Source of the DNA: Candidatus Poribacteria bacterium
Lineage (GTDB): Bacteria > Poribacteria > WGA-4E > WGA-3G
Direction: 5' to 3'
NCBI GenBank assembly: GCA_965215265.1
Contig: OZ244048.1
Span: 1,183,121 to 1,247,120 of the forward strand
Length of the DNA stretch: 64,000 nucleotides
The notes beneath the pieces were generated by a model. That model did not search any database. It had not been told where the DNA came from and worked only from the letters and a program-made list of their open reading frames with translations. The translations under genes and the position numbers were made by a program. Below, piece after piece: positions 6,427 to 43,859 of this stretch; positions within the stretch are counted from its first letter, which is position 1; every line of letters starts with the position of its first letter.

Positions 6427-7653
6427 TTGTGTATAATTCATGTTAAGGAGATTTCGTCTTTACAATATGCAAAACGGCGAAGCGAAAGCAAGGTGGCAGG
6501 CGGCACCCCAGCACAAACGAACCGAACAATGACAAAAGAAACCGAGTTTTTTACAGCTTTCAATATACCTATCGGACAGTTTCCCGACCGGAGTGCCCGG
6601 TTCTTGCTGGAGAACAAGCACAATGTCCGGGGACTTTTAGAAATTATTGCCGCACCTCTCGTACCGCAGCTAGATTTCGATAGACTTGTACAACTTAACC
6701 GCAGCTTCCTCCCTGCCAATTTACGCGAGCAGGAGTCAGACCTCGTCTATCGCGTGCCGTTTCAGAACGCAACCAAACAGGAAGAGCTGCTCATCTATAT
6801 CCTCATTGAACATCAATCCACCGTGGATGTAAGCATGGCATTTCGGATACTGTTTTATATGATGCAGATTTGGGATGGCCAGCGCCGCCAATGGGAAGCA
6901 GAAAACGTGCCGAAAGGCCAGTGGAAATTCCGCCCAATTCTGCCTATTGTATTTTACACCGGGGACCGGCACTGGAAGCAACCTTTAACTCTGCAGTCCT
7001 TGATGGATGTTCCCGAAGAACTTAAGCGGTTCGTGCCACAATTCGATACCTTGTTTCTTAGTGTGAAAGAGAGCGACGCGGCAAGGTTGACTGAAACAAA
7101 CCATCCGTTCGGGTGGCTACTGAGCGTGCTGCAAAAGGAACACGCACCCAAAGAGGAGTTGCGGACGGTGTTGCTTGCTGCACTGCGCTCTCTGAATACT
7201 TTGGATAACACGGCACACTCGCAGTGGCGGCAAGCAATTTGGTATTTACAGTTATTAATATTCCATCGTCGTCAACCGGATGAACAAGAAGAGTTAATAA
7301 AGTTACTCTCAGAAAATATAGAAGATTTTACCCGTAAAGAGGAGGAAAAAATCATGGCACAGACTATAGCAGAATATCTTAGGGACCAAGGCATTGCAAT
7401 TGGAGAGTCGCGTGGCAGGGAAGAAGGGGAAGCACGTGGCAGAGAAGAAGGGGAAGCGCACGGCAAAACGCAAGCGAAACAAGAGGCTATCCTCAAACTG
7501 CTCGAACTCCGATTTCAGCAGGTGCCCGAAACGGTGAACCGGACCATCACCGAAATCCAGGAACTTTCGCACTTGGACGTGTTATTTGAGAAGGTAGCGA
7601 CTGCACAATCCCTTGACGAAATACAATGGAATGGCAACCCTAATGTAGAATAG
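6427..7653 (+). CDS. Rpn-family (YhgA-like) recombination-promoting nuclease/putative transposase
   Basis: PD-(D/E)XK-type core (LIYILIEHQS). The C-terminal region with REEGEARGREEGEAHG repeats and DUF4351-like tail is typical of Rpn/Transposase_31 proteins. Confidence 0.7.
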   Translation: MCIIHVKEISSLQYAKRRSESKVAGGTPAQTNRTMTKETEFFTAFNIPIGQFPDRSARFLLENKHNVRGLLEIIAAPLVPQLDFDRLVQLNRSFLPANLREQESDLVYRVPFQNATKQEELLIYILIEHQSTVDVSMAFRILFYMMQIWDGQRRQWEAENVPKGQWKFRPILPIVFYTGDRHWKQPLTLQSLMDVPEELKRFVPQFDTLFLSVKESDAARLTETNHPFGWLLSVLQKEHAPKEELRTVLLAALRSLNTLDNTAHSQWRQAIWYLQLLIFHRRQPDEQEELIKLLSENIEDFTRKEEEKIMAQTIAEYLRDQGIAIGESRGREEGEARGREEGEAHGKTQAKQEAILKLLELRFQQVPETVNRTITEIQELSHLDVLFEKVATAQSLDEIQWNGNPNVE

Positions 7654-9479: not shown

Positions 9480-12179
9480 ATGAAATACCTGTTTGAAAAT
9501 TTACGCGACGATACACAAAAGTGGCGCAGCACCGGATACCCGTGTACAGATTACCCACTCATCGCGGAAATCCTACGTTGGCAATTTGAAGGTGAACCGC
9601 AAGAGCAAATCGCCCTCAAATACCTCCGAGAACCGCAATTCCAAGCACTAGAAATCTATTGGTTCCTCAGATTGGTGCGAAAGACACCGCATATTGTCGA
9701 TCTTTACAAGCACTATTACAGCGACGATAAACGCGACTTCTTTAAAGCGTTCGGGATTCCAATCGATCCAACCGAGCTCCAATGGATTCCTAATGTTGAC
9801 ACTGTCATTGACCGGGTAAGAACTGACCCTGAATTCGTTAAACAGAAGCGAATCGAGCCCGTTCATGAGGCTGTGACGCTCCCATACCCTAGCTATATCT
9901 TCGCGCTCGCGATGGGCACCGGCAAGACGGTACTCATCGCCACTATTATTGCCACCGAATTCGCCATGGCACTTCGATATCCTGAAGGTAGCTTTATGAA
10001 AAATGCACTCGTCTTTGCACCCGGTACAACCATCATAGAGAGTTTACGCGAGATTAGCGCAGTTCCTTTCGAGAAAATCCTGCCCGCAAGCCTACACCGT
10101 GACTTCCTCGCGAATCTCAAGATGACCTATCCACAGACCGGCGCAAAAGAAATTCAAGTCCAACAAGGCAGCACTTACAATGTCATCGTCACGAATACCG
10201 AGAAAATTAGCCTCAGGGCGAACCTGACGCGACGCACGAATCAGACAGAAATGGAGTTCGAGGAAAAAGAGAAAAAAGCGAAATTAGAGGCAAACCTCCG
10301 ACTGCAAAAAATCGCAAGCCTACCCAATTTAGGGGTTTTTTCCGACGAAGCACACCATACTTACGGCAATAGAATGGATAAAGAACTCAAGCGAGTCCGT
10401 GAAACCGTCAACTACATCAATGAGGAAACGCGCCTCATCGCGGTTGTCAACACCACCGGTACGCCTTACTACAAACGGCAGATGCTCCGCGAAGTTGTCG
10501 CGTGGTACAGCCTCGGTGAAGGTATTGAGGATAATATCCTAAAAAGCCTCAATAACGGGATTATCCATTACGACATTGGTGAACGTTCTGATGAAGATGT
10601 AATCCGAGATGTGATTGTTGAATTTTTCAAGAACTACGATGGCGTTACGCTGTCCAACGGTGCAAAAGCGAAAATCGCTTTCTACTTCAAAACGCAAGAC
10701 CATCTCGGTACCTCACGTCTCCACATTGAAAGAACATTGGCTGAACTCGGCAAGAGCCCAACTCTGATACTTGTTAATACGCAGCGTTCAACTCAAACCG
10801 AGATTGACGAATTCAACCGACTTAACGATCCGGATAGTCAGAAGCGCATCCTACTCCTCATCGGTAAAGGTGTAGAAGGCTGGAATTGCCCGAGTCTATT
10901 TGCCTGTGCCTTAATTAAGGAACAGACAACAAGCAGCAACTTTGTCTTGCAAGCCTCAACGCGATGCCTCCGTCAAGTGCCCGGAAATACGCAGCCCGCC
11001 AAAATCTTTTTGGATACGAAGAACCGAAGCATTTTAGACAAGGAATTGCAGGACAACTTCGGAACTACCTTGCAAAATCTCGGTGGACACACCGCAGCTA
11101 CAGAAGAAATTGAGCTCCGTATTCGCAAGCCAGAACTACCGGAACTGCAAATCTCACGGCTAATTTCTCGTGTTGTTCGGAAGGAACAGACCTCCGGCCC
11201 CTTGCAGTTGACAATTCCGGCTGAAGGAGTAGATGTCCCACCTATTCACCGGGCGACGCTAACACCGAATTTCACAAGCAGGACATCCCGACTCATAGGT
11301 AGAACGGAAATTGACGAGATTCCTTTGATGAACAGATCCACGGATTGCTATACGCTCTCGCGGCGCATCGCAGCAAATTATCACCTCCCTTATATGCAAA
11401 CGCTCAAAAGCCTCAAACTGCTCTATCCAGAAGGTGAGGTCCCCAATACGCACCTCCACCCGCTCTACCAACAAGTGGAAAACCAGTTGCAGAATTACGA
11501 CGTAATTAACGAAGAGGTAACCGAAACCCTGGCACTCATTCGTACCCTTGATAAGGAGGGTAAGCCTGTTTTTGACGAGGAAGAAGATGGATACTACATT
11601 CACCGCTTACGTTTGCTCAAACGCACCGTAGAGCGAATGAAAGAGGGCGGCCTGTTGTTTGAAGCAGGAAACCTATTGGACGAACACGATGTCACTTTCC
11701 ACTATGCACCCTACAACTTTGATACCGTGCCAGAACGCCGCTTTTTTGAGGAAATTCTGAACACGGTCAACGCATCCGGGGACGACATCGACATCTTTCT
11801 ATTTACCGGCGGATTAACGGATCCCAACAAAACGGATTTCCACTTTGAATACAAGGGTGTCGATGGCAATTATCACCGCTATTTTCCCGACTTTGTCATT
11901 GTCAAGAAAACCGGTGCAGTTTTCATCGTCGAAATTAAGGCTGAAAGCGAACGGAACGATGAAACCGTCCAAGCCAAAAGCAAAGCAGTCGAACGTTTGC
12001 CGAAGTTGCAAGCCGCCGGTAGCGAATTGAAGTCGGTTCCACCTTTCAAATATCACGTTGTTTATACCACGACGAATCGACTCCAAGAGAATCTCGACAC
12101 GATTAGACCCGTCATAAATTGGATTCGTCCGACTGAAGACTCAGAAACAGGAGGAGCTTATGAAAATTACGCCGGTTAA
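9480..12179 (+). CDS. res: Type III restriction enzyme Res subunit (helicase + PD-(D/E)XK nuclease)
   Basis: Walker A (AMGTGKT) and DEAH box (FSDEAHHTYG). The C-terminal YFPDFVIV...VFIVEIKAE is a PD-ExK motif. The gene overlaps the downstream mod start by 20 nt. Confidence 0.8.
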   Translation: MKYLFENLRDDTQKWRSTGYPCTDYPLIAEILRWQFEGEPQEQIALKYLREPQFQALEIYWFLRLVRKTPHIVDLYKHYYSDDKRDFFKAFGIPIDPTELQWIPNVDTVIDRVRTDPEFVKQKRIEPVHEAVTLPYPSYIFALAMGTGKTVLIATIIATEFAMALRYPEGSFMKNALVFAPGTTIIESLREISAVPFEKILPASLHRDFLANLKMTYPQTGAKEIQVQQGSTYNVIVTNTEKISLRANLTRRTNQTEMEFEEKEKKAKLEANLRLQKIASLPNLGVFSDEAHHTYGNRMDKELKRVRETVNYINEETRLIAVVNTTGTPYYKRQMLREVVAWYSLGEGIEDNILKSLNNGIIHYDIGERSDEDVIRDVIVEFFKNYDGVTLSNGAKAKIAFYFKTQDHLGTSRLHIERTLAELGKSPTLILVNTQRSTQTEIDEFNRLNDPDSQKRILLLIGKGVEGWNCPSLFACALIKEQTTSSNFVLQASTRCLRQVPGNTQPAKIFLDTKNRSILDKELQDNFGTTLQNLGGHTAATEEIELRIRKPELPELQISRLISRVVRKEQTSGPLQLTIPAEGVDVPPIHRATLTPNFTSRTSRLIGRTEIDEIPLMNRSTDCYTLSRRIAANYHLPYMQTLKSLKLLYPEGEVPNTHLHPLYQQVENQLQNYDVINEEVTETLALIRTLDKEGKPVFDEEEDGYYIHRLRLLKRTVERMKEGGLLFEAGNLLDEHDVTFHYAPYNFDTVPERRFFEEILNTVNASGDDIDIFLFTGGLTDPNKTDFHFEYKGVDGNYHRYFPDFVIVKKTGAVFIVEIKAESERNDETVQAKSKAVERLPKLQAAGSELKSVPPFKYHVVYTTTNRLQENLDTIRPVINWIRPTEDSETGGAYENYAG

Positions 12180-13925
12180 AGGGAGAGCGATGCTGCACTG
12201 GGTGGGCAAACGCCCCATCGGCACGGTGAGCAACTATCCCGCCCAATTGGTGGAAACTTGTAACGTTGAAAACCCAGAGAAAGAGCCGCTATATGATGGA
12301 TTTTTGGAGGGGCCGAACCTCGTTTTTCACGGCGACAACAAGGAGATCCTCTCCACCTTACTCGTCAACGGTTTCCGCAGTAAGATAGACCTCATCTACA
12401 TTGACCCGCCCTTTGCCAGCGGTGCAGACTACGTTCGAAAGGTAAAACTCCGCGGCATTAGCAGGTCAACCTTGGATGAAGGTGCTGGGAACCCAGGTGG
12501 GAGTAGGGGGGGGGTAAACCTGCTTCTTTAACAGGCGAAGGTCACTCCATTATTGAACAGACACAATACACCGACATCTGGGCGAATGATAATTATCTCC
12601 AGTTCATGTTTGAGCGGCTTATCTTAATGCGCGAACTGCTTTCGGATGCCGGCTCTATTTACCTGCACTGTGACCCAACGATGAGTCATTATCTGAAGTT
12701 GCTCATGGATGAAATTTTTAGTGGAATGTTTCGGAGAGAATTAATTTGGGCAATGCCGCGTCCTAGTGGATTTAAAACGCAAGCTCAGAATTGGATCCGA
12801 AATCATGATGTTATTCTCTATTACGCCACAGAAAATGCCATGTTTCATAAGCAATACGAACCTTATGAGGAGTCTTACCTCGCAAATTTCGATAAATCGG
12901 ACGAAAAAGGACGATATTGGCTGCGCAATGGGCAAAAGAGAAGATTAGGGAAAGGCTATACACTCGGAGATGTCTGGACTGACATCGACTCTATGCAAAC
13001 GCAATCCGTGAGTCTGAGTGAAGGGCTTGGCTACCCTACCCAGAAACCGGAGGCTCTAATAGCCCGCATCATCAAAGCGTCAAGCAATGAAGACTCCATC
13101 GTGCTTGATTGCTTCGTGGGCAGTGGCACCACCGCAGTCGTGGCTGAAAAACTCCGCAGACGCTGGATTGCCGCAGATCTGAACAGAGGCGCGATACAGA
13201 CGACAATGAAACGCATCCAGACAACCATTGCCGAACACCGCGGAATCGCTCACTATCGCATCAATAACTATCACTTTGGCAAAGAACAGGAACTCCATCG
13301 GCTTGTCATAGAAAAGTATGGTGTCGAAACGGACAAGAAAGACCGCTTCTTTGACGGCACCGTAGAGGGGACGCTTGTCAAAATCGTTGAGCTGACAAAA
13401 CCGCTCACCCGATTAGATATTCAACTTATCAAAGACGAACTTCAGCACCGCCCTGATGAGGCACGCGCTGTTACAGTCCTCTGCAACGGCAGCGAGTTGG
13501 GAATACAAGCCGAACTTGACGCAGAAAACAAGCGGCACCCGATTAATCAACTCATCGTGCGGGACATCCAACGCGACGGTGTCACTACCTTCGCCCCTGC
13601 TGAAGCAGAAGTTGACTTCAAAAGAGACGGGCAACACGTTACCATCACCCTCGTAGATTATATCAGTCCGAGCCTCTTAGGGCGTTTGGAGATAGCCCGC
13701 ACCCTCTTTGACGAACAAGTTGATGATTTCCGTGCGCAGATTGATTGCGTGCTGATAGATACGGACTACAACGGCACGCATTTCAGAATCGTTGAGAGTG
13801 ATGTGCCGGAGCAGAGAACCGATTTTATCAGGGGCCAATACACGGTAGTGCTGCCGCGCCGTGATGCCCGTGTTGCCGTCAAGATTATTGATATGCTTGG
13901 CGAGGAAACTCTCATCACAGAATAA
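12160..13925 (+). CDS. mod: Type III Mod DNA methyltransferase, allele 1 (frameshifted at a G9 tract, i.e. phase-OFF as sequenced)
   Basis: The N-terminal ORF (12160-12531) carries IYIDPPF (motif IV). The downstream ORF (12606-13925) carries FVGSGTT (motif I). The two frames are split at a homopolymeric G9 run. The order IV-TRD-I is typical of type III beta-class Mod. Confidence 0.75.
12506..12514 (+). repeat. Homopolymeric G9 tract inside mod allele 1
   Basis: Counted directly in the sequence: gagta-GGGGGGGGG-taaacc. 7 or 10 G would give an in-frame fusion of the two mod ORFs. Confidence 0.9.
13035..13925 (+). repeat. Conserved 3' module of mod (891 nt), directly repeated at 14839-15729
   Basis: Near-identical nucleotide sequence between the two mod alleles. 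A similar 5' module is repeated at about 12160-12615 and 13968-14415. Confidence 0.8.
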
Positions 13926-13967
13926 CATCAGAAAAAGGACCTGAAGCCCTATGCGAGAGGAGAACTC

Positions 13968-15729
13968 ATGAAAATTACGCCGGTTAAAGGGAGAGCAATG
14001 CTGCACTGGGTGGGCAAACGCCCCATCGGCACGGTGAGCAACTATCCCGCCCAATTGGTGGAAACTTATAACGTTGAAAACCCAGAGAAAGAGCCGCTAT
14101 ATGATGGATTTTTGGAGGGGCCGAACCTCGTTTTTCACGGCGACAACAAGGAGATCCTCTCCACCTTACTCGTCAACGGTTTCCGCAGTAAGATAGACCT
14201 CATCTACATTGACCCGCCCTTTGCCAGCGGTGCAGACTACGTTCGAAAGGTAAAACTCCGCGGCATTAGCAGGTCAACCTTGGATGAAGGTGCTGGGAAC
14301 CCAGGTGGGAGTAGGGGGGGGTAAACCTGCTTCTTTAACAGGCGAAGGCCCCTCCATTATTGAACAGACACAATACACCGACATCTGGGCGAATGATAAC
14401 TATCTCCAATTCATGTTTGAACGCCTGATCTTGATGCGAGAGCTGCTGAGTGAAAAAGGGAGCATCTACCTGCACTGCGACTGGCATAAGAGCCATCATC
14501 TCCGTATGCTCCTCGATGAAGTGTTCGGCGAACAGAACTTCGTCAATGAGATTGTCTGGAAATATAACTGGGCGAGCACAGTAAAAAAGAAGTTCTCCCA
14601 AAAACATGACACGATTTTCTGGTACGCCAAAAGTGCTGAAGAGTGGATTTTCAATTTAGACGAGATGCGGGAACTGTATACAGAAACACAATTGAAGGGC
14701 TATAAACAGGATGAAGATGGGTATTATACATTGGACTCTTCGGGGAAAAAATGGTACGCACATTCAAAAGGACAATTGCCCGCAGACCTGTTTGAAATTG
14801 GTATTATCAGCAGAAGCGCAAAAGAACGGCAAAAATTTCCTACCCAGAAACCGGAGGCTCTAATAGCCCGCATCATCAAAGCGTCAAGCAAGGAAGACTC
14901 CATCGTGCTTGATTGCTTCGTGGGAAGCGGCACCACCGCAGTCGTGGCTGAAAAACTCCGCAGACGCTGGATTGCCGCAGATCTGAACAGAGGGGCCATA
15001 CAGACGACAATGAAACGCATCCAGACAACTATTGCCGAACACCGCGGAATCGCTCACTATCGCATCAATAACTATCACTTTGGCAAAGAACAGGAACTCC
15101 ATCGGCTTGTCATAGAAAAGTATGGTGTCGAAACGGACAAGAAAGACCGCTTCTTTGACGGCACCGTAGACGGAACCCTCGTCAAAATCGTTGAGCTGAC
15201 GAAACCGCTCACCCGATTAGATATTCAACTTATCAAAGACGAACTGCAGCACCGCCCTGATGAGACGCGCTCGGTGACGGTGCTCTGCAACGGCAGCGAG
15301 CTGGGAATACAAGCTGAACTTGACGCAGAAAACAAGCGGCACCCGATTAATAAACTCATCGTGCGGGACATCCAACGCGACGGGGTTACAACCTTCGCCC
15401 CTGCCGAAGCAGAAGTTGCCTTCAAAAGAGATGGGCAACACGTCACCATTACCCTCGTAGATTATATCAGTCCGAGCCTCTTAGGGCGTTTGGAGATAGC
15501 CCGCACCCTCTTTGACGAACAAGTTGATGATTTCCGTGCGCAGATTGATTGCGTGCTGATAGATACGGACTACAACGGCACGCATTTCAGAATCGTTGAG
15601 AGTGATTTGCCGGAGAAGCAGAGCGATTTTATCAAAGGCCAATACACGGTAGTGCTGCCGCGCCGTGATGCCCGTGTTGCCGTCAAGATTATTGATATGC
15701 TTGGCGAGGAAACGGTAGTAACGGGATAA
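13968..15729 (+). CDS. mod: Type III Mod DNA methyltransferase, allele 2 (different central TRD; frameshifted at a G8 tract)
   Basis: The first 118 codons are near-identical to allele 1. The last ~890 nt (from PTQKPEALIARIIKAS onward) are near-identical to allele 1. The central ~385 nt are unrelated. ORFs 13968-14324 and 14284-15729 overlap at a G8 tract. Confidence 0.75.
14314..14321 (+). repeat. Homopolymeric G8 tract inside mod allele 2
   Basis: gagta-GGGGGGGG-taaacc. This is one G shorter than allele 1 and also out of frame. Confidence 0.9.
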
Positions 15730-41479: not shown

Positions 41480-41989
41480 ATGGCTAAGCAGAAACATACT
41501 ATGATTGAATTTAACGTTAACTTTCTCTCTATTGATCAGAGTACCGGTGCTCCGATAGTTGTTCTAAAAGAGAAAGACGGAGACCCCAAGCGGATATTGT
41601 TATTCTTGATTGGCGAATCCGAAGCAAGTTCTATCCATATGCGATTGGAAAAGATGGAACTCCCACGCCCTATGACGCACGATCTGCTCAAGACTGTAAT
41701 TGAAAGGTTGGATGCAGCAGTAAGTTTTGTCTGCGTAACCGCATTTGAGGAGCGGACTTTTTATGCCCAGATAAAACTGCTGGCGAACGGTAATGAGTTT
41801 GATATAGATTCGCGTCCGAGTGATGCAATTGCACTCGCGCTCCGTTGTGACGCTCCCATCTATGTCGCAGAAGACGTGGTAGAAGAACACGGGTTCTCTG
41901 AAAAGAATCTTGAGAAGCCACGGAAACGCGACACCAAAGATCTGTTAGAGAACTTAGATGATGACACCTTAAAACAGTATACAGTTTAG
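41480..41989 (+). CDS. DUF151 bifunctional-nuclease-domain protein
   Basis: PRPMTHDL...RPSDAIALALRCDAPIYV matches the BFN/DUF151 core. Confidence 0.7.
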   Translation: MAKQKHTMIEFNVNFLSIDQSTGAPIVVLKEKDGDPKRILLFLIGESEASSIHMRLEKMELPRPMTHDLLKTVIERLDAAVSFVCVTAFEERTFYAQIKLLANGNEFDIDSRPSDAIALALRCDAPIYVAEDVVEEHGFSEKNLEKPRKRDTKDLLENLDDDTLKQYTV

Positions 41990-42107: not shown

Positions 42108-43025
42108 ATGAGATTCAAAACCACGAATTCACTTAACCCCAATTTTACGGTGCTACATCAAGATTGCACGGAAATGTTAAATAGCAAGATACTTGCATCG
42201 AGTATTGACACGACTTTCCTTGATCCGCCGTTTAATCAGGACAAAGCATACAAGACATGGGATGATAATATGCCAGCGGAAATGTATTGGGCCTGGATGC
42301 AGGAAATATGCACCAAGATTTACGCGTTGACTTCCCATGGCGGTGCCATCTATTTCATGCAACGCGAGAAAAATACGGAATTCGTCTTGCAGTGTTTGCG
42401 CGAGTCCGGATGGAACTTCCAAAACCTGATTGTCTGGAAAAAGAAGACCTCGGCTGTTCCTGGAATGAAGCGTTTTGGCAAGCACTATCAGATTATCGCC
42501 TTTGCAACCAAAGGCACCTCGCCGCGCGTTTTTCATCGGCTGCGAATTGATCCACCGCTGCCTTCTAGCTACAAGCACCCCCGGAAAAACGGAATGTTTG
42601 TCACAGATGTTTGGGATGATATTCGTGAGTTAACATCAGGCTATTTTGCAGGCGATGAAGCATTGCGAGACGCAGAAGGGAATCGGTTACACAAGCAACA
42701 GGCACCGGTTCAACTCTTGCTGCGGATCCTCCTCTCTTCAACAAACCCCGGCGATGTCGTACTAGATCCGTTCGCTGGTTCCGGAACGACATTGGTTGTT
42801 GCTGAACAGTTAGGACGGAAGTCAATAGGGATTGAACTAGACCCGTTTAACGTTGCGTTAATTCAAAAACGGATTGCTGAACAGAGAACAGCGGACGATG
42901 TGTCGCGATTTTTCAAAGATTACGCGTGTACTCCGGATTTGGAAACAATTTGGGGAACACCTGAAGCGACCTCCACGGATCCGCTGGTTTCCAAACAGAT
43001 AACACTTTTTGAGTCAAATCGATAG
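42108..43025 (+). CDS. Beta-class DNA methyltransferase (N6-adenine or N4-cytosine), type II
   Basis: Motif IV FLDPPF near the N-terminus and motif I FAGSGTT near the C-terminus. Confidence 0.8.
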   Translation: MRFKTTNSLNPNFTVLHQDCTEMLNSKILASSIDTTFLDPPFNQDKAYKTWDDNMPAEMYWAWMQEICTKIYALTSHGGAIYFMQREKNTEFVLQCLRESGWNFQNLIVWKKKTSAVPGMKRFGKHYQIIAFATKGTSPRVFHRLRIDPPLPSSYKHPRKNGMFVTDVWDDIRELTSGYFAGDEALRDAEGNRLHKQQAPVQLLLRILLSSTNPGDVVLDPFAGSGTTLVVAEQLGRKSIGIELDPFNVALIQKRIAEQRTADDVSRFFKDYACTPDLETIWGTPEATSTDPLVSKQITLFESNR

Positions 43026-43859
43026 ATGGTTAACTCAATTTATCATTTCTTCGCACATTTATGCCTCAAAAGAGAAAAACTTCTTTCAGGAACTCCTCTA
43101 GAGAACTTTCCATTTGATAAGCGAATGCTATCTTGCGAAAATAAAGGGCGTTTTCCAGATTTAGCTATCAGACTCAATCAAGCAGATCGACTATTTAGTG
43201 GTGGCGAATTAATTGAACTCAAGGATAGTAAAACCTATTCGGTGGCTTCTTTTAATTCTACGATTCCGACAGGCGAAAAGGATATTCGCAGGCTAATCAA
43301 AGGGACAGAAAACACCATTCGGACACAGATGCAAAAAGCAGGTAATGATATACTTTCCTTACCCATGCGCCAAGTTTTCTATCTCATTCGTGGCAGGAAG
43401 AAGTCAAATGTGAAAATTTGCTTGACTCATGGGAAGTTTTTTGAGACCGTTCCTGTTTCAACTTTGATTTCAGAGTCATTTGCCCAAGCTTTAGAAGAGC
43501 GGTTAAACGAACTTGGAGAATCGTTATCTACATCAATCAGACAAAAATTATTAGACATATTCAGCGAACAGCAAACTTTTAGTAGAACTAGAAATGTAGA
43601 AGATGCCTCAGTGCGGCTCCGTTTTCGTATTATGACTGAAGTTAAAGCCGGAGGAAATATTTTAAATCCAAATCAGTACCCACAAATTGGCGACAATACG
43701 TTGAACTTTGCTGTTCCATGTCACAGAAATATAAATATAGAAAAGCATCGACAGAACAACCAGATGAAAATCGCTTTTGACTCAATGGAATGCTCACAGC
43801 TATTTTCGCAGATGAAAGTTTTTATCCTTTTGGAGATGAACGTCAGTGCGGCACTCTGA
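43026..43859 (+). CDS. Putative type II restriction endonuclease (PD-ExK), cognate to the upstream MTase
   Basis: ATG immediately follows the MTase TAG stop. FPDLAI...(19 aa)...ELIELKDSK fits PD-(D/E)XK. Markedly AT-rich relative to its neighbours. Confidence 0.5.
   Translation: MVNSIYHFFAHLCLKREKLLSGTPLENFPFDKRMLSCENKGRFPDLAIRLNQADRLFSGGELIELKDSKTYSVASFNSTIPTGEKDIRRLIKGTENTIRTQMQKAGNDILSLPMRQVFYLIRGRKKSNVKICLTHGKFFETVPVSTLISESFAQALEERLNELGESLSTSIRQKLLDIFSEQQTFSRTRNVEDASVRLRFRIMTEVKAGGNILNPNQYPQIGDNTLNFAVPCHRNINIEKHRQNNQMKIAFDSMECSQLFSQMKVFILLEMNVSAAL

What the first reader, a model, noticed from the sequence alone, without database searches (positions are those of the whole stretch)
9480..15729. 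Type III R-M locus with one res and two tandem mod alleles carrying different TRDs between shared 5' and 3' modules
After res (Walker A, DEAH, PD-ExK) come two mod genes in tandem. Their first ~450 nt and last 891 nt are near-identical at the DNA level, but their central ~385 nt are unrelated. These central regions sit between motif IV (DPPF) and motif I (FxGSG), where type III Mod TRDs lie. Two long direct repeats flanking alternative TRDs are the substrate expected for homologous recombination that swaps or deletes specificity. This would be a cis-encoded specificity-switching arrangement, normally seen as allelic variation between strains rather than in tandem. Only one res is present, so either Mod could pair with it. 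The res-mod order with a 20-nt overlap is also the less common orientation.
Basis: partly seen in the sequence, partly recalled or inferred. Interest (0 to 1): 0.75.

Follow-up and report, generated by a model that had tools for sequence, protein, structure and literature searches.

The report
Frameshift-gated tandem mod genes, one res
A restriction-modification operon in a probable sponge symbiont has one restriction gene and two tandem methylase genes with different DNA-recognition cassettes, both knocked out of frame by a slippery run of G; the layout is already known from Mycoplasma, but here it belongs to a family of at least eight such genes, all "off".

Summary
Their 5' 481 nt are 97.3% identical, their 3' 876 nt are 95.8% identical, and their ~390-nt centres cannot be aligned as DNA.

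Only G7, G10 or G13 gives a full-length Mod.

A 99.15%-identical independent assembly has the same locus with G9/G9. The tract is the only net indel in 21.3 kb. The window's genome encodes at least 8 distinct tract-truncated Mod N-termini. At least 19 exist in the database, and none of this clade is in frame. Lengths are only 8 or 9, including in short-read-style assemblies. The reading frame downstream of the frameshift is still under purifying selection (dN/dS 0.10-0.25).

The shared flanks show gene conversion between copies, and the central cassettes are old alleles shared with other genomes.

Best reading: a Type III-like, poly-G-gated (phase-variable) multi-Mod/one-Res system. Recombination homogenises the flanks over evolutionary time but is not shown to act as a switch.

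Tandem SSR-bearing mod genes with a single res are published for Mycoplasma bovis and M. agalactiae. This is therefore a new member of a known kind, found in a new lineage and habitat.

The parts
9480..12179 (+). res: SF2 helicase-nuclease subunit (899 aa), intact. Walker A GTGKT is at 9915-9929, DEAHH at 10344-10358, a motif-VI-like QASTRCLRQ at 10950-10976, and PD...EIK at 11886-11939.
   Evidence: It matches Pfam ResIII at 29.7 bits, above the 22.5 cut-off. The catalytic motifs are invariant across 22 homologues down to 28% identity. dN/dS against the syntenic L001 Res is 0.10. A homologue is adjacent to a Mod homologue wherever the fetched contig extends that far among about 100 loci.
12160..13925 (+). 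mod1 (recognition cassette 'TRD1'), frameshifted. The N-terminal frame is 12160-12531 (123 aa) and the C-terminal frame runs to 13925. It overlaps res by 20 nt.
   Evidence: Pfam N6_N4_Mtase scores E 5e-43 on the repaired protein. The TRD1 cassette is 85% identical to that of P0001 from another genome, while the flanks are only 75-76% identical.
12506..12514 (+). Poly-G tract of mod1, G9 (out of frame; in frame at G7, G10 or G13).
   Evidence: It sits in a loop that is disordered in the Mod model (pLDDT <50), just after motif IV.
12641..13034 (+). Variable central cassette of mod1: methylase motifs V-VIII plus the recognition domain.
   Evidence: It has no DNA similarity to mod2. Protein identity to the mod2 centre is about 36%.
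13926..13967 (+). 42-nt mod1-mod2 spacer with a ribosome-binding-like GAGAGGAGAA. No +-strand terminator was predicted.
13968..15729 (+). mod2 (recognition cassette 'TRD2'), frameshifted. The N-terminal frame is 13968-14324 (118 aa) and the C-terminal frame is open from 14284 to 15729.
   Evidence: Pfam N6_N4_Mtase scores E 4e-53. The TRD2 cassette is 93% identical to that of P0045, against 73-82% for the flanks.
14314..14321 (+). Poly-G tract of mod2, G8 (out of frame; in frame at G7 or G10). The orthologous tract is G9 in the 99.15%-identical strain.
   Evidence: It is the only net indel in 21.3 kb.
14448..14838 (+). Variable central cassette of mod2.
12160..12640 (+). Shared 5' module, copy 1. 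Copy 2 is 13968-14447. Identity is 97.3%.
   Evidence: Sites shared by both copies within a strain indicate gene conversion.
13035..13909 (+). Shared 3' module, copy 1. Copy 2 is 14839-15713. Identity is 95.8%. dN/dS between the two copies is 0.13.

Best explanation
This is a Type III-like restriction-modification operon, res-mod1-mod2, in a probable Poribacteria sponge symbiont.

How it is built:
- One helicase-nuclease (Res) is followed by two tandem Mod methyltransferase paralogs.
- The two Mods have almost identical N- and C-terminal modules, so either should be able to partner the same Res (inferred).
- They carry different, anciently diverged central recognition cassettes, so they should recognise different DNA motifs (inferred).

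How it is gated:
- Each mod has a hypermutable poly-G tract in a disordered loop just after catalytic motif IV.
- Only G7, G10 or G13 gives full-length Mod. In this assembly mod1 is G9 and mod2 is G8, so both are out of frame.
- In Type III systems Res needs Mod to recognise DNA, so the whole system would be silent at the consensus level (established knowledge applied here).
- Slipped-strand mispairing at the tracts would switch each specificity on or off independently (inferred mechanism). The tract mutability itself is shown.

Wider context:
- The two genes belong to a genome-wide family of at least 8 tract-bearing mod paralogs, some tandem and some dispersed.
- Their flanks are kept about 95% identical by gene conversion, while the cassettes are exchanged as old alleles among genomes.
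- Recombination therefore shapes the repertoire over evolutionary time, and the G tract is the fast gate.
For: Architecture and mosaic:
- ORFs, repeats, motifs and the mosaic identity pattern are established.

Mod is Type III-like:
- phmmer hits EcoP15I Mod 4zcf_A at E 6e-22, including the N-terminal region.
- The AF2 model of a close homologue with the same cassette (pLDDT 71.9) matches the H. pylori Type III Mod 6k0w, EcoP15I Mod 4zcf and Mbo45V Mod 7dsu over 400-580 columns. Type II beta-class methylases align over only ~285 columns.

Res:
- It matches Pfam ResIII, and Walker A, DEAHH, motif VI and PD-ExK are invariant.
- Linkage with Mod is conserved across relatives in both gene orders.

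Frameshift gating:
- Full-length products arise only at G7/G10/G13.

Tract hypermutability:
- L020 is 99.15% identical over 21.3 kb, and the only net indel is G8 vs G9 in mod2. A8, T8 and A7 runs are identical in both assemblies.
- A second orthologous pair (the TRD4 copy) is G8-type in the window's genome (P0315) and G9 in L105/L106.

Not a long-read artefact:
- L106, with a SPAdes-style NODE name at 57x coverage, has the same G9 as L105.
- Two JGI contigs and one Logan contig (L107-L109) all have G8.

The tract is compatible with function:
- The syntenic single mod of L001 has a G9 at the same place. It is in frame there because the downstream flank differs by 7 nt.

Genes are still selected:
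- dN/dS of the module downstream of the frameshift is 0.13 between mod1 and mod2. It is 0.10-0.25 among four tract-bearing paralogs with dS up to 0.25, and 0.11-0.13 against L001. No other lesions were found.

Gene conversion and cassette exchange:
- Site patterns in the flanks and module-wise identities support both.

Family size:
- At least 8 distinct truncated N-termini lie on the 4,833,177-nt contig.

Precedent:
- M. bovis has 3 mod + 1 res, each mod with (AG)n.
- M. agalactiae 5632 has two tandem (GA)n mod genes + res, often truncated.
- G[n] tracts gate the H. pylori modH, modJ and modL genes.
Against: - No in-frame allele of this clade was found. At least 19 distinct N-terminal fragments are all 118, 121 or 123 aa (G8- or G9-type). 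No full-length protein more than 75% identical to mod1 appeared in a 5.8-billion-cluster search. ON/OFF switching is therefore inferred, not observed. With random frames, 0 of 8 in one genome has p of about 0.04.
- mod2's G8 is below the G9 or longer criterion of Atack et al. 2018.
- Under a zero-order model about 1 run of G/C of 8 or more is expected per 64 kb, so the tract alone is not statistically remarkable.
- Res could not be tied to solved Type III Res proteins by sequence, profile or fold. Its AF2 model was poor (pLDDT 54.9).
- Res pN/pS between the two near-identical strains is 0.80 on 17 differences. This could mean relaxed constraint or could be noise.
- No methylation or expression data exist.
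Confidence: 0.62

Rival explanations
1. One reading: recombination is the switch. Homologous recombination between the long direct repeats swaps, deletes or amplifies cassettes at appreciable frequency, so the expressed specificity changes by DNA rearrangement.
For: - Gene-conversion signatures appear in the shared flanks between two 99%-identical strains.
- At 9 of 20 sites private to mod2, the allele matches a third paralog.
- Arrays of 1, 2 or 3 copies occur in related genomes, with flanks always about 93-97% identical.
- Dispersed solitary copies could serve as donors.
- P0263 looks like an in-frame deletion joining the N-terminus to the last ~28 aa.
Against: - Cassette identity and order are unchanged between the strains (187 paralog-specific sites in the centre).
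- Direct repeats give deletion or duplication, not reversible switching.
- There are no inverted repeats between the copies and no dedicated recombinase.
- Both genes are out of frame whatever the cassette, so a swap alone would change nothing that is expressed.
Confidence: 0.15
2. Decay: the mod genes are pseudogenes inactivated at a fragile homopolymer. The locus, and the whole family, is a non-functional relic, and the tract length simply drifts.
For: - Every copy seen is out of frame.
- Several relatives have res genes with internal stops or frameshifts: L006, L015, L016 and L017.
- Many truncated Mod fragments exist in related genomes.
- Res pN/pS between the near-identical strains is 0.80.
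Against: - dN/dS downstream of the frameshift is 0.10-0.25 over dS up to 0.25 in four paralogs, and there is no second lesion in any of them.
- Drifting pseudogenes should also show G7, G10, G6 and G11. Only the two out-of-frame lengths lying between the in-frame lengths are seen.
- Res is intact, with long-term dN/dS of 0.10.
Confidence: 0.12
3. Leaky decoding: out-of-frame tracts are the normal state. Transcriptional slippage or ribosomal frameshifting on the G run gives constant low-level full-length Mod, and in-frame alleles are selected against because high expression, or sudden switch-on alongside an active Res, is harmful.
For: - Lengths are confined to 8 and 9, with no in-frame alleles, while purifying selection persists.
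- G9 offers a G GGG GGG slippery heptamer for a -1 shift. G8 places a TAA stop directly after GGG, in a prfB-like +1 context. Both are read directly.
- A 2026 preprint reports frame-dependent low-level expression from frameshifted M. bovis mod1 SSR constructs.
Against: - There is no stable RNA structure downstream of the tract (z-scores 0.16 and 0.27).
- Two different frame offsets would need two different recoding events.
- There is no direct evidence of slippage on G runs here.
- The L001 orthologue is simply in frame.
Confidence: 0.15
4. Artefact: the frameshifts are homopolymer miscalls, and/or the tandem duplication is a mis-assembly of strain alleles.
For: - The relatives fetched are long, near-chromosome-scale MAG contigs, most likely from long reads (inference from their size and naming). 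Indels in homopolymers are the main residual error of long reads (general knowledge).
Against: - The same tandem arrangement is found in an independent assembly.
- G9 is reproduced in a SPAdes-style assembly, and G8 in two JGI contigs plus one Logan contig.
- Turning G8 and G9 into G7 or G10 would need opposite error biases.
- Other 7-8-nt homopolymers agree between the assemblies.
Confidence: 0.03

Closest known systems
Mycoplasma multi-mod Type III loci: M. bovis PG45 Mbo45ORF167P (three mod + one res), M. agalactiae 5632 M1/M2.Mag5632ORF1570P (two tandem mod + res), and M. pulmonis
   Same: - Several tandem mod paralogs have conserved 5'/3' regions and a variable central recognition region, and share a single res.
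- Each mod carries its own simple-sequence repeat soon after motif IV (nt ~320 in M. mycoides, nt 347 here).
- Sequenced alleles are frequently out of frame.
   Different: - The repeat is (AG)n/(GA)n there and poly-G here.
- The order is mod...mod-res there, with mod overlapping res by 14 bp. Here it is res-mod-mod, with res overlapping mod1 by 20 nt.
- The paralogs are 65-70% identical overall there. Here the flanks are 95-99% identical and the centre about 36%.
- The hosts are vertebrate pathogens with minimal genomes there, versus an uncultured sponge symbiont here.
- At least 8 copies per genome here.
- The Res family here is not recognised by the PADLOC restriction-enzyme models.
Phasevarion mod genes with poly-G tracts (H. 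pylori modH/modJ/modL, C. upsaliensis modU) and allelic modA/modB of Neisseria and Haemophilus
   Same: - A mononucleotide G[n] tract inside a Type III mod ORF gates expression.
- Many alleles differ only in the central recognition domain, between conserved flanks.
- Cassettes are exchanged by recombination.
   Different: - Those alleles are alternatives at one locus in different strains. Here several sit in one genome, partly in tandem.
- ON and OFF alleles are both documented there. None is ON here.
[quoted passage not shown]
   Same: - Cassette and flank phylogenies are incongruent.
- Recombination occurs at conserved methylase motifs flanking the cassette (motifs IV-VIII on the 5' side, X-III on the 3' side).
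- Solitary mod copies exist (compared).
   Different: - There the recombining flanks are short (8-117 bp) and lie between non-orthologous loci, and the authors report finding no unequal recombination between tandem paralogs for Type III.
- Here the flanks are 481 and 876 nt, about 95% identical, and arranged in tandem.
EcoP1I / EcoP15I prototype Type III enzymes
   Same: - Mod is a beta-class methylase with sequence and fold similarity to EcoP15I Mod.
- The partner is a helicase with a C-terminal PD-(D/E)xK nuclease, as in Res.
   Different: - There is no detectable sequence or profile relationship of this Res to EcoP1I/EcoP15I Res beyond the helicase motif V-VI region (hhalign probability 11%).
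- The gene order is reversed.
- The prototypes have a single mod without a repeat tract.
Type I hsdS inversion systems (e.g. M. pulmonis hsd, S. pneumoniae SpnD39III)
   Same: Several alternative specificity cassettes are encoded in cis next to a single restriction subunit.
   Different: Those use inverted repeats and a site-specific recombinase to shuffle half-domains reversibly. Here the repeats are direct, no recombinase is present, and gating is by frameshift.

Membership tests
Type III restriction-modification system | Mod is a beta-class N6A/N4C methyltransferase with the order motif IV (DPPY/F) - recognition domain - motif I (FxGxG). | tested here: met
   DPPF lies upstream of FVGSG with the variable region between them. 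Pfam N6_N4_Mtase scores E 5e-43 and 4e-53.
Type III restriction-modification system | Mod is significantly similar to an experimentally confirmed Type III Mod (EcoP15I). | tested here: met
   phmmer against 4zcf_A gives E 6.4e-22 over aa 10-238. Foldseek on the model of a homologue with the same cassette gives 6k0w at E 4e-19, 4zcf at E 2e-18 and 7dsu at E 6e-16, over 400-580 columns. TM-scores are low (0.35-0.49) because the domain arrangement in the model is uncertain.
Type III restriction-modification system | Res has N-terminal SF2 helicase motifs and a C-terminal PD-(D/E)xK nuclease. | tested here: met
   Pfam ResIII scores 29.7 bits against a 22.5 cut-off. G146/G148/K149, DEAHH 289-293, Q491/R495/R498 and P803-D804...E818-x-K820 are invariant in 22 homologues. 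There is a sub-threshold TnsA-like nuclease hit.
Type III restriction-modification system | Res is homologous to characterised Type III Res proteins (EcoP1I/EcoP15I). | tested here: inconclusive
   There is no PDB hit by sequence or profile at E of 1 or better. hhalign against EcoP1I Res covers only the motif V-VI region at 11% probability. The AF2 model is poor (pLDDT 54.9) and Foldseek finds nothing at E of 0.001 or better. No PADLOC REase model matches.
Type III restriction-modification system | mod and res are adjacent and co-inherited. | tested here: met
   Res and Mod homologues are adjacent wherever the contig extends far enough, in 19 genome loci and 80 metagenome loci. Both orders occur, and the sponge-symbiont clade is res-first.
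Type III restriction-modification system | A Mod2Res1 complex, with ATP-dependent cleavage needing two inversely oriented unmethylated sites. | not testable with these tools
   This needs biochemistry.
Phase-variable (contingency) mod gene | A simple-sequence repeat inside the ORF, long enough for high-rate slippage (mononucleotide run of 9 or more, Atack 2018). | tested here: met
   mod1 has G9, which meets the criterion. mod2 has G8, one base short, but its orthologue in L020 is G9.
Phase-variable (contingency) mod gene | Changes in tract length move the gene in and out of frame. | tested here: met
   G7, G10 and G13 give full-length products. G6, G8, G9 and G11 truncate at 118-123 aa.
Phase-variable (contingency) mod gene | Tract length is polymorphic among otherwise near-identical genomes. 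| tested here: met
   mod2 is G8 against G9, the only net indel in 21.3 kb. The TRD4 paralog is G8-type against G9. Two of four orthologous pairs differ.
Phase-variable (contingency) mod gene | Both ON and OFF alleles occur in the population. | tested here: not met
   There are 0 in-frame alleles among at least 19 distinct N-terminal fragments, and no full-length protein of the clade was found. Only consensus assemblies were available, so minority alleles could not be seen.
Phase-variable (contingency) mod gene | Switching changes genome methylation or restriction. | not testable with these tools
   This needs read kinetics or experiments.
Mycoplasma-type multi-mod/one-res locus | Two or more tandem mod paralogs with conserved ends and a variable centre, each with its own SSR, and a single res. 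| tested here: met
   compared.
Mycoplasma-type multi-mod/one-res locus | Gene order is mod(s) upstream of res, with a mod/res overlap. | tested here: not met
   res is first here and overlaps mod1 by 20 nt.
Recombinase-driven specificity shufflon (Type I hsdS type) | Inverted repeats between cassettes and an adjacent site-specific recombinase. | tested here: not met
   Only direct repeats lie between the copies. The two inverted pairs found are 20-nt, 75% matches. The neighbours are an NFACT-family gene and an Rpn/YhgA-like nuclease, not an invertase.

The most novel reading that the evidence does not exclude
The window shows two members of a large family of mod genes (at least 8 copies, tandem and dispersed) that are kept intact by selection yet held permanently in the two out-of-frame tract lengths (G8, G9) that lie between the in-frame lengths (G7, G10). 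This would be a 'latent specificity reservoir'. Either in-frame alleles are lethal or rare because switch-on beside an active Res attacks the unmethylated chromosome, or Mod is made only through low-level slippage or recoding on the G run. Either way this would be a mode of controlling restriction specificity not described for Type III systems, and it would sit in uncultured sponge symbionts, where the same Res/Mod family has spread across several phyla.
Probability: 0.2. Interest if true: 0.72.

Novelty: new member of a known kind. Interest (0 to 1): 0.5.

Why it matters
Repeat-gated Type III methylases are mostly known from host-adapted pathogens, where they act as switchable defence and as epigenetic regulators.

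Here the same logic appears in an uncultured sponge symbiont, in a divergent Res/Mod lineage that a standard defence-system HMM library (PADLOC) only half recognises. It is multiplied to at least eight genes per genome.

The pattern of 'all copies out of frame, yet all under purifying selection, with tracts toggling only between the two OFF lengths' gives a concrete, testable question about the cost of switching a restriction specificity on.

The data to answer it probably already exist: the HiFi reads and their kinetics for these metagenomes.

It also warns annotators that these 'pseudogenes' should not be discarded.

Tried and rejected
1. Exact-pattern scan of metagenome contigs for the tract flank found 0 hits.
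2. Res structure: AF2 with 24 homologues at 62% identity or more gave pLDDT 54.9. Foldseek against the PDB gave only weak TnsA, NucS and DEAD-box hits at E of 0.06 or worse, too weak to use.
3. Sequence, profile and hhalign comparisons of Res with PDB chains and with EcoP1I Res gave nothing significant.
4. Programmed frameshifting: no stable structure lies downstream of the tract (z-scores 0.16 and 0.27).
5. A split-enzyme idea. In the G8 state an ATG at 14284 opens a 481-aa C-terminal ORF overlapping the N-terminal fragment. G9 copies have a TAG at the tract start and no start codon before 12606, so this cannot be general.
6. A census with the 118-aa fragment returned only short proteins, so it is biased by length and is not an unbiased ON/OFF count.
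7. DNA for the other copies on the window's 4.83-Mb contig could not be fetched.
8. Chance occurrence of the tract: under a zero-order model about 1 run of 8 or more G/C is expected per 64 kb, so the tract alone is not significant. The argument rests on its position, conservation and polymorphism.
9. The Dybvig 2007 M. pulmonis paper is not held in the library.

Full report
**1. What is in the sequence**

The region holds three same-strand genes.
- res runs 9480-12179 (899 aa).
- mod1 starts at 12160, inside the last 20 nt of res, and its reading frame ends at 13925.
- After a 42-nt spacer, mod2 runs 13968-15729.

blastn of the two mod genes gives two blocks and nothing significant between them.
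- The 5' block is nt 1-481, 97.3% identical with one gap.
- The 3' block is nt 876-1750, 95.8% identical.

The repeat finder shows the same register, with spacing of 1804-1808 nt.

Both repaired proteins match Pfam N6_N4_Mtase (E 5e-43 and 4e-53). Motif IV DPPF lies upstream of motif I FVGSG, and the divergent block lies between them.

At protein level the centres are about 36% identical. They still contain the methylase core motifs, such as GSIYLHCD and HD.I..Y. Only about 60 residues cannot be aligned at all.

**2.

- mod1 reads 12160-12531 and stops. The rest of the gene is in another frame.
- The break is a G9 run at 12506-12514.
- mod2 breaks at a G8 run at 14314-14321.
- Rebuilding the genes with different tract lengths shows that only G7, G10 or G13 gives a full-length 586-589-aa protein. 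G6, G8, G9 and G11 stop after 118-123 aa.
- These are the only G/C runs of 7 or more in the 64-kb window.
- A zero-order model would allow about one run of 8 or more by chance, so the tract alone proves nothing.

**3. Whose genome this is, and whether the arrangement is real**

A scan of one genome per species with Res found 19 loci.
- All but two are named for groups reported from sponges (Poribacteria, Nitrospinales, Latescibacterota, Ca. Spongiihabitans, several Gammaproteobacteria). Their sponge origin is inferred from the taxon names and the uniform record style, not stated in the records.
- Identity to the window's Res is 56-78%.

The best match, L001 (Ca. Poribacteria, Res 78%), is syntenic with the window.
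- The NFACT gene upstream is 83% identical and GroEL downstream is 89% identical.
- The window is therefore most likely a Poribacteria genome (inference).

A protein search found a C-terminal mod1 fragment 97% identical on another assembly. That contig (L020, GCA_964347105.1) is 99.15% identical to window 2627-23924.
- It has the same res, two split mod genes and the same two cassettes.
- The tandem duplication is therefore not an assembly artefact.

**4. The tract is the mutable spot**

- In the 21.3-kb alignment with L020 there are three gaps. Two are a compensating pair inside a substitution patch. The third, the only net indel, is the mod2 tract: G8 here and G9 there.
- The A8, T8 and A7 runs in the same stretch are identical in the two assemblies.
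- mod1 is G9 in both assemblies.

The same MAG has further copies.
- One sits at a contig end (L021, third cassette, G8).
- One is solitary, between an MFS transporter gene and dnaE (L105, fourth cassette, G9).

L106 has a SPAdes-style name at 57x coverage and is most likely a short-read assembly (inference). It is 99.98% identical to L105 over 11.4 kb with no gaps, and also has G9.

A more distant relative carries a G8 tract in two JGI contigs and one Logan contig. There too a second mod lies just upstream. Long-read homopolymer error therefore does not explain the frameshifts.

**5. A whole family, all out of frame**

- Exact look-up of the truncated N-terminal peptides found them in a 90% cluster of 16 members, all 118 or 123 aa.
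- Six of these lie on a 4,833,177-nt contig, which is the window's genome. The window's own peptides and C-terminal fragments are recorded on it.
- A further search added two more 118-aa fragments on that contig.
- The genome therefore encodes at least 8 distinct tract-truncated Mod N-termini.
- Its orthologues of the third and fourth cassettes (P0311, P0315) start with MKVLGT..., the signature of the G8 state. The fourth-cassette orthologue in L105/L106 is G9.

Tract lengths in the four orthologous pairs, window genome against GCA_964347105.1:

| Copy | Window genome | GCA_964347105.1 |
|---|---|---|
| mod1 | 9 | 9 |
| mod2 | 8 | 9 |
| mod3 | 8 | 8 |
| mod4 | 8 | 9 |

- None of the four in-frame versions of mod1 or mod2 exists in the 15-billion-sequence collection.
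- No full-length protein more than 75% identical to mod1 was listed, although an in-frame paralog would have ranked at the top.
- In all, at least 19 distinct copies show only the two out-of-frame lengths that lie between the in-frame lengths 7 and 10.
- The one in-frame tract-bearing gene is the single mod of L001. It has G9, but its downstream flank is 7 nt longer, so G9 is in frame there.

**6. They are not decaying**

- Downstream of the frameshift, mod1 and mod2 differ by 30.5 synonymous and 14.5 non-synonymous changes, giving dN/dS of 0.13.
- Among four tract-bearing paralogs the ratio is 0.10-0.25, with dS up to 0.25. Against the in-frame L001 gene it is 0.11-0.13.
- No copy has a second lesion.
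- Res is intact. Its dN/dS against L001 is 0.10.
- Between the two near-identical strains Res shows 12.5 non-synonymous and 4.5 synonymous changes. That is too few to interpret.

**7. Recombination between the copies**

I compared the site patterns of window mod1, window mod2, L020 mod1 and L020 mod2 across the shared flanks.
- Twelve sites have both copies of one strain differing from both copies of the other.
- Singleton sites come in clusters, for example 1208-1217, 1302-1319 and 1653-1660.
- Sites that distinguish mod1 from mod2 in both strains are confined to the edges of the cassette and the last 12 nt.
- Parallel mutation cannot give twelve such sites at about 0.4% background divergence, so this is gene conversion.
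- SNP density in the mod region is 5-10 times the background.
- The cassettes themselves are stable: 187 paralog-specific sites and only 6 singletons.

Module-wise identities show the opposite pattern between genomes.

| Comparison | N module | Centre | C module |
|---|---|---|---|
| mod2 vs P0045 | 82% | 93% | 73% |
| mod1 vs P0001 | 76% | 85% | 75% |
| Paralogs within one genome | 95-99% | 36-51% | 94-96% |

The cassettes are therefore old alleles moving between backgrounds, and the flanks are homogenised within each genome. This matches what is described for H. pylori and Neisseria/Haemophilus Type III mod genes.

**8. Arrays elsewhere**

- L012 (Poribacteria) has three intact tandem mod genes after res.
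- L007 (Gammaproteobacteria) has two.
- L103 has two, separated by a small gene pair.
- In all of them the flanks are 93-97% identical and the centres cannot be aligned.
- None of these has a G tract. L103's second mod has only an (AG)5.
- L012's genome also has a solitary fourth paralog 1.3 Mb away.
- Among 80 more distant metagenomic relatives (34-48% identity) every locus has one mod. Res is adjacent wherever the contig reaches. About half are res->mod and half are the canonical mod->res.
- The tract-bearing ~20-aa insert is confined to the window's clade and L001. In other relatives the same loop carries (GN)n expansions.

**9. Is it Type III?**

Mod: yes, by sequence and fold.
- EcoP15I Mod matches at E 6e-22.
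- Foldseek top hits are 6k0w, 4zcf and 7dsu, aligned over nearly the full length.

Res: the architecture and motifs fit. I could not link it to solved Type III Res proteins, and PADLOC has no model for it. I therefore call the system Type III-like.

**10. Mechanism**

Shown:
- Two Mods with different cassettes follow one Res.
- Each Mod is gated by a frameshift at a mutable G tract.
- Selection acts on the gated frames.
- Gene conversion occurs between the copies.

Inferred:
- Slipped-strand mispairing turns each specificity on or off independently.
- Either Mod can use the one Res, because their non-cassette modules are nearly identical.
- With both out of frame the system is silent, since a Type III Res needs Mod for recognition (established knowledge; also stated).

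The absence of any in-frame allele remains unexplained. Possible reasons:
- Counter-selection of switch-on next to an active Res.
- Rarity of ON cells below the consensus level.
- Low-level decoding through the G run.

A preprint shows such leakiness for M. bovis mod1. I found no stimulatory RNA structure here.

**11. Comparison with what is known, and verdict**

- One res with several tandem, repeat-gated mod genes is published for M. bovis PG45 (three mod genes, with (AG)11, (AG)14 and (AG)24).
- It is also published for M. agalactiae 5632 (two tandem (GA)n mod genes + res, often truncated).
- Poly-G-gated Type III mod genes are known in H. pylori and Campylobacter.
- I found no paper on such systems in Poribacteria or sponge symbionts. 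Only a general enrichment of R-M systems is reported there.

The finding is a real and well-formed example of a known kind, in a new lineage. The res-first order, the very high flank identity and the unusually large, uniformly out-of-frame family are its distinctive points.

Noticed in passing
L002-L018, between the end of res (~12600) and the start of mod (e.g. L010 12591-13851, L006 12609-15276, L005 12568-14409, L008 12588-13586): In most relatives, 0.5-3.3 kb of variable cargo is inserted between res and mod. The cargo includes ThsB-like TIR, TIR_2, an OLD-like AAA_15/TOPRIM ATPase, the 8xMP membrane protein, DUF6978+DUF1828, DUF5343+Hypoth_Ymh and an SDH-type protease. The res-mod junction looks like a hotspot for other defence genes. 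The window has no cargo there.
   Followed up: partly
window 42108-43859: A second, unrelated methylase gene (305 aa, N6_N4_Mtase E 7e-45) is followed directly by a 277-aa ORF with no Pfam match, in a low-GC stretch (0.39). It may be a Type II R-M pair. A BFN-domain nuclease gene lies at 41480-41989.
   Followed up: partly
window 6427-7653: A YhgA/Rpn-like 'Transposase_31' (PD-(D/E)xK recombination-promoting nuclease family) lies two genes upstream of res. It is conserved in L020 but absent from the syntenic L001. Any link to the recombination seen in the mod flanks is untested.
   Followed up: no
L104 10001-15723: In the L012 genome a fourth mod paralog, with flanks 94-98% identical to those of the array copies, sits alone 1.3 Mb away. 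It lies next to an IS605-type TnpB and a CBASS pair (CD-NTase + Cap15).
   Followed up: partly
L105/L106 10001-11814; L021 1-1809: Solitary, res-less, tract-frameshifted mod copies lie in housekeeping contexts. One is between an MFS transporter gene and dnaE. Another is next to groES-groEL and starts exactly at a contig end.
   Followed up: partly
L006, L015, L016, L017 res genes (locus coordinates 10001-~12600): Several relatives have res genes with internal stops or frameshifts (1, 34, 3 and 11 stops in the aligned frame) while the neighbouring mod looks intact. This is the familiar drift of Type III systems towards methylase-only loci.
   Followed up: no
Proteins P0064, P0065, P0070, P0080, P0082, P0093, P0096; L007 mods: The loop that holds the G tract in the window carries (Gly-Asn)n expansions of varying length in other relatives. 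This disordered loop after motif IV seems generally prone to repeat expansion.
   Followed up: no
Protein P0263 (135 aa): A Mod-like protein joins the N-terminal ~105 aa in frame to the last ~28 aa of the C-terminal module. It looks like a deletion product of recombination within or between mod copies.
   Followed up: no
L107 2-2482 (also L108): Short JGI contigs of a more distant relative show the end of one mod followed 458 nt later by a second mod with a G8 tract and the TRD2-type cassette. This is another tandem, tract-gated array, in independent samples.
   Followed up: partly
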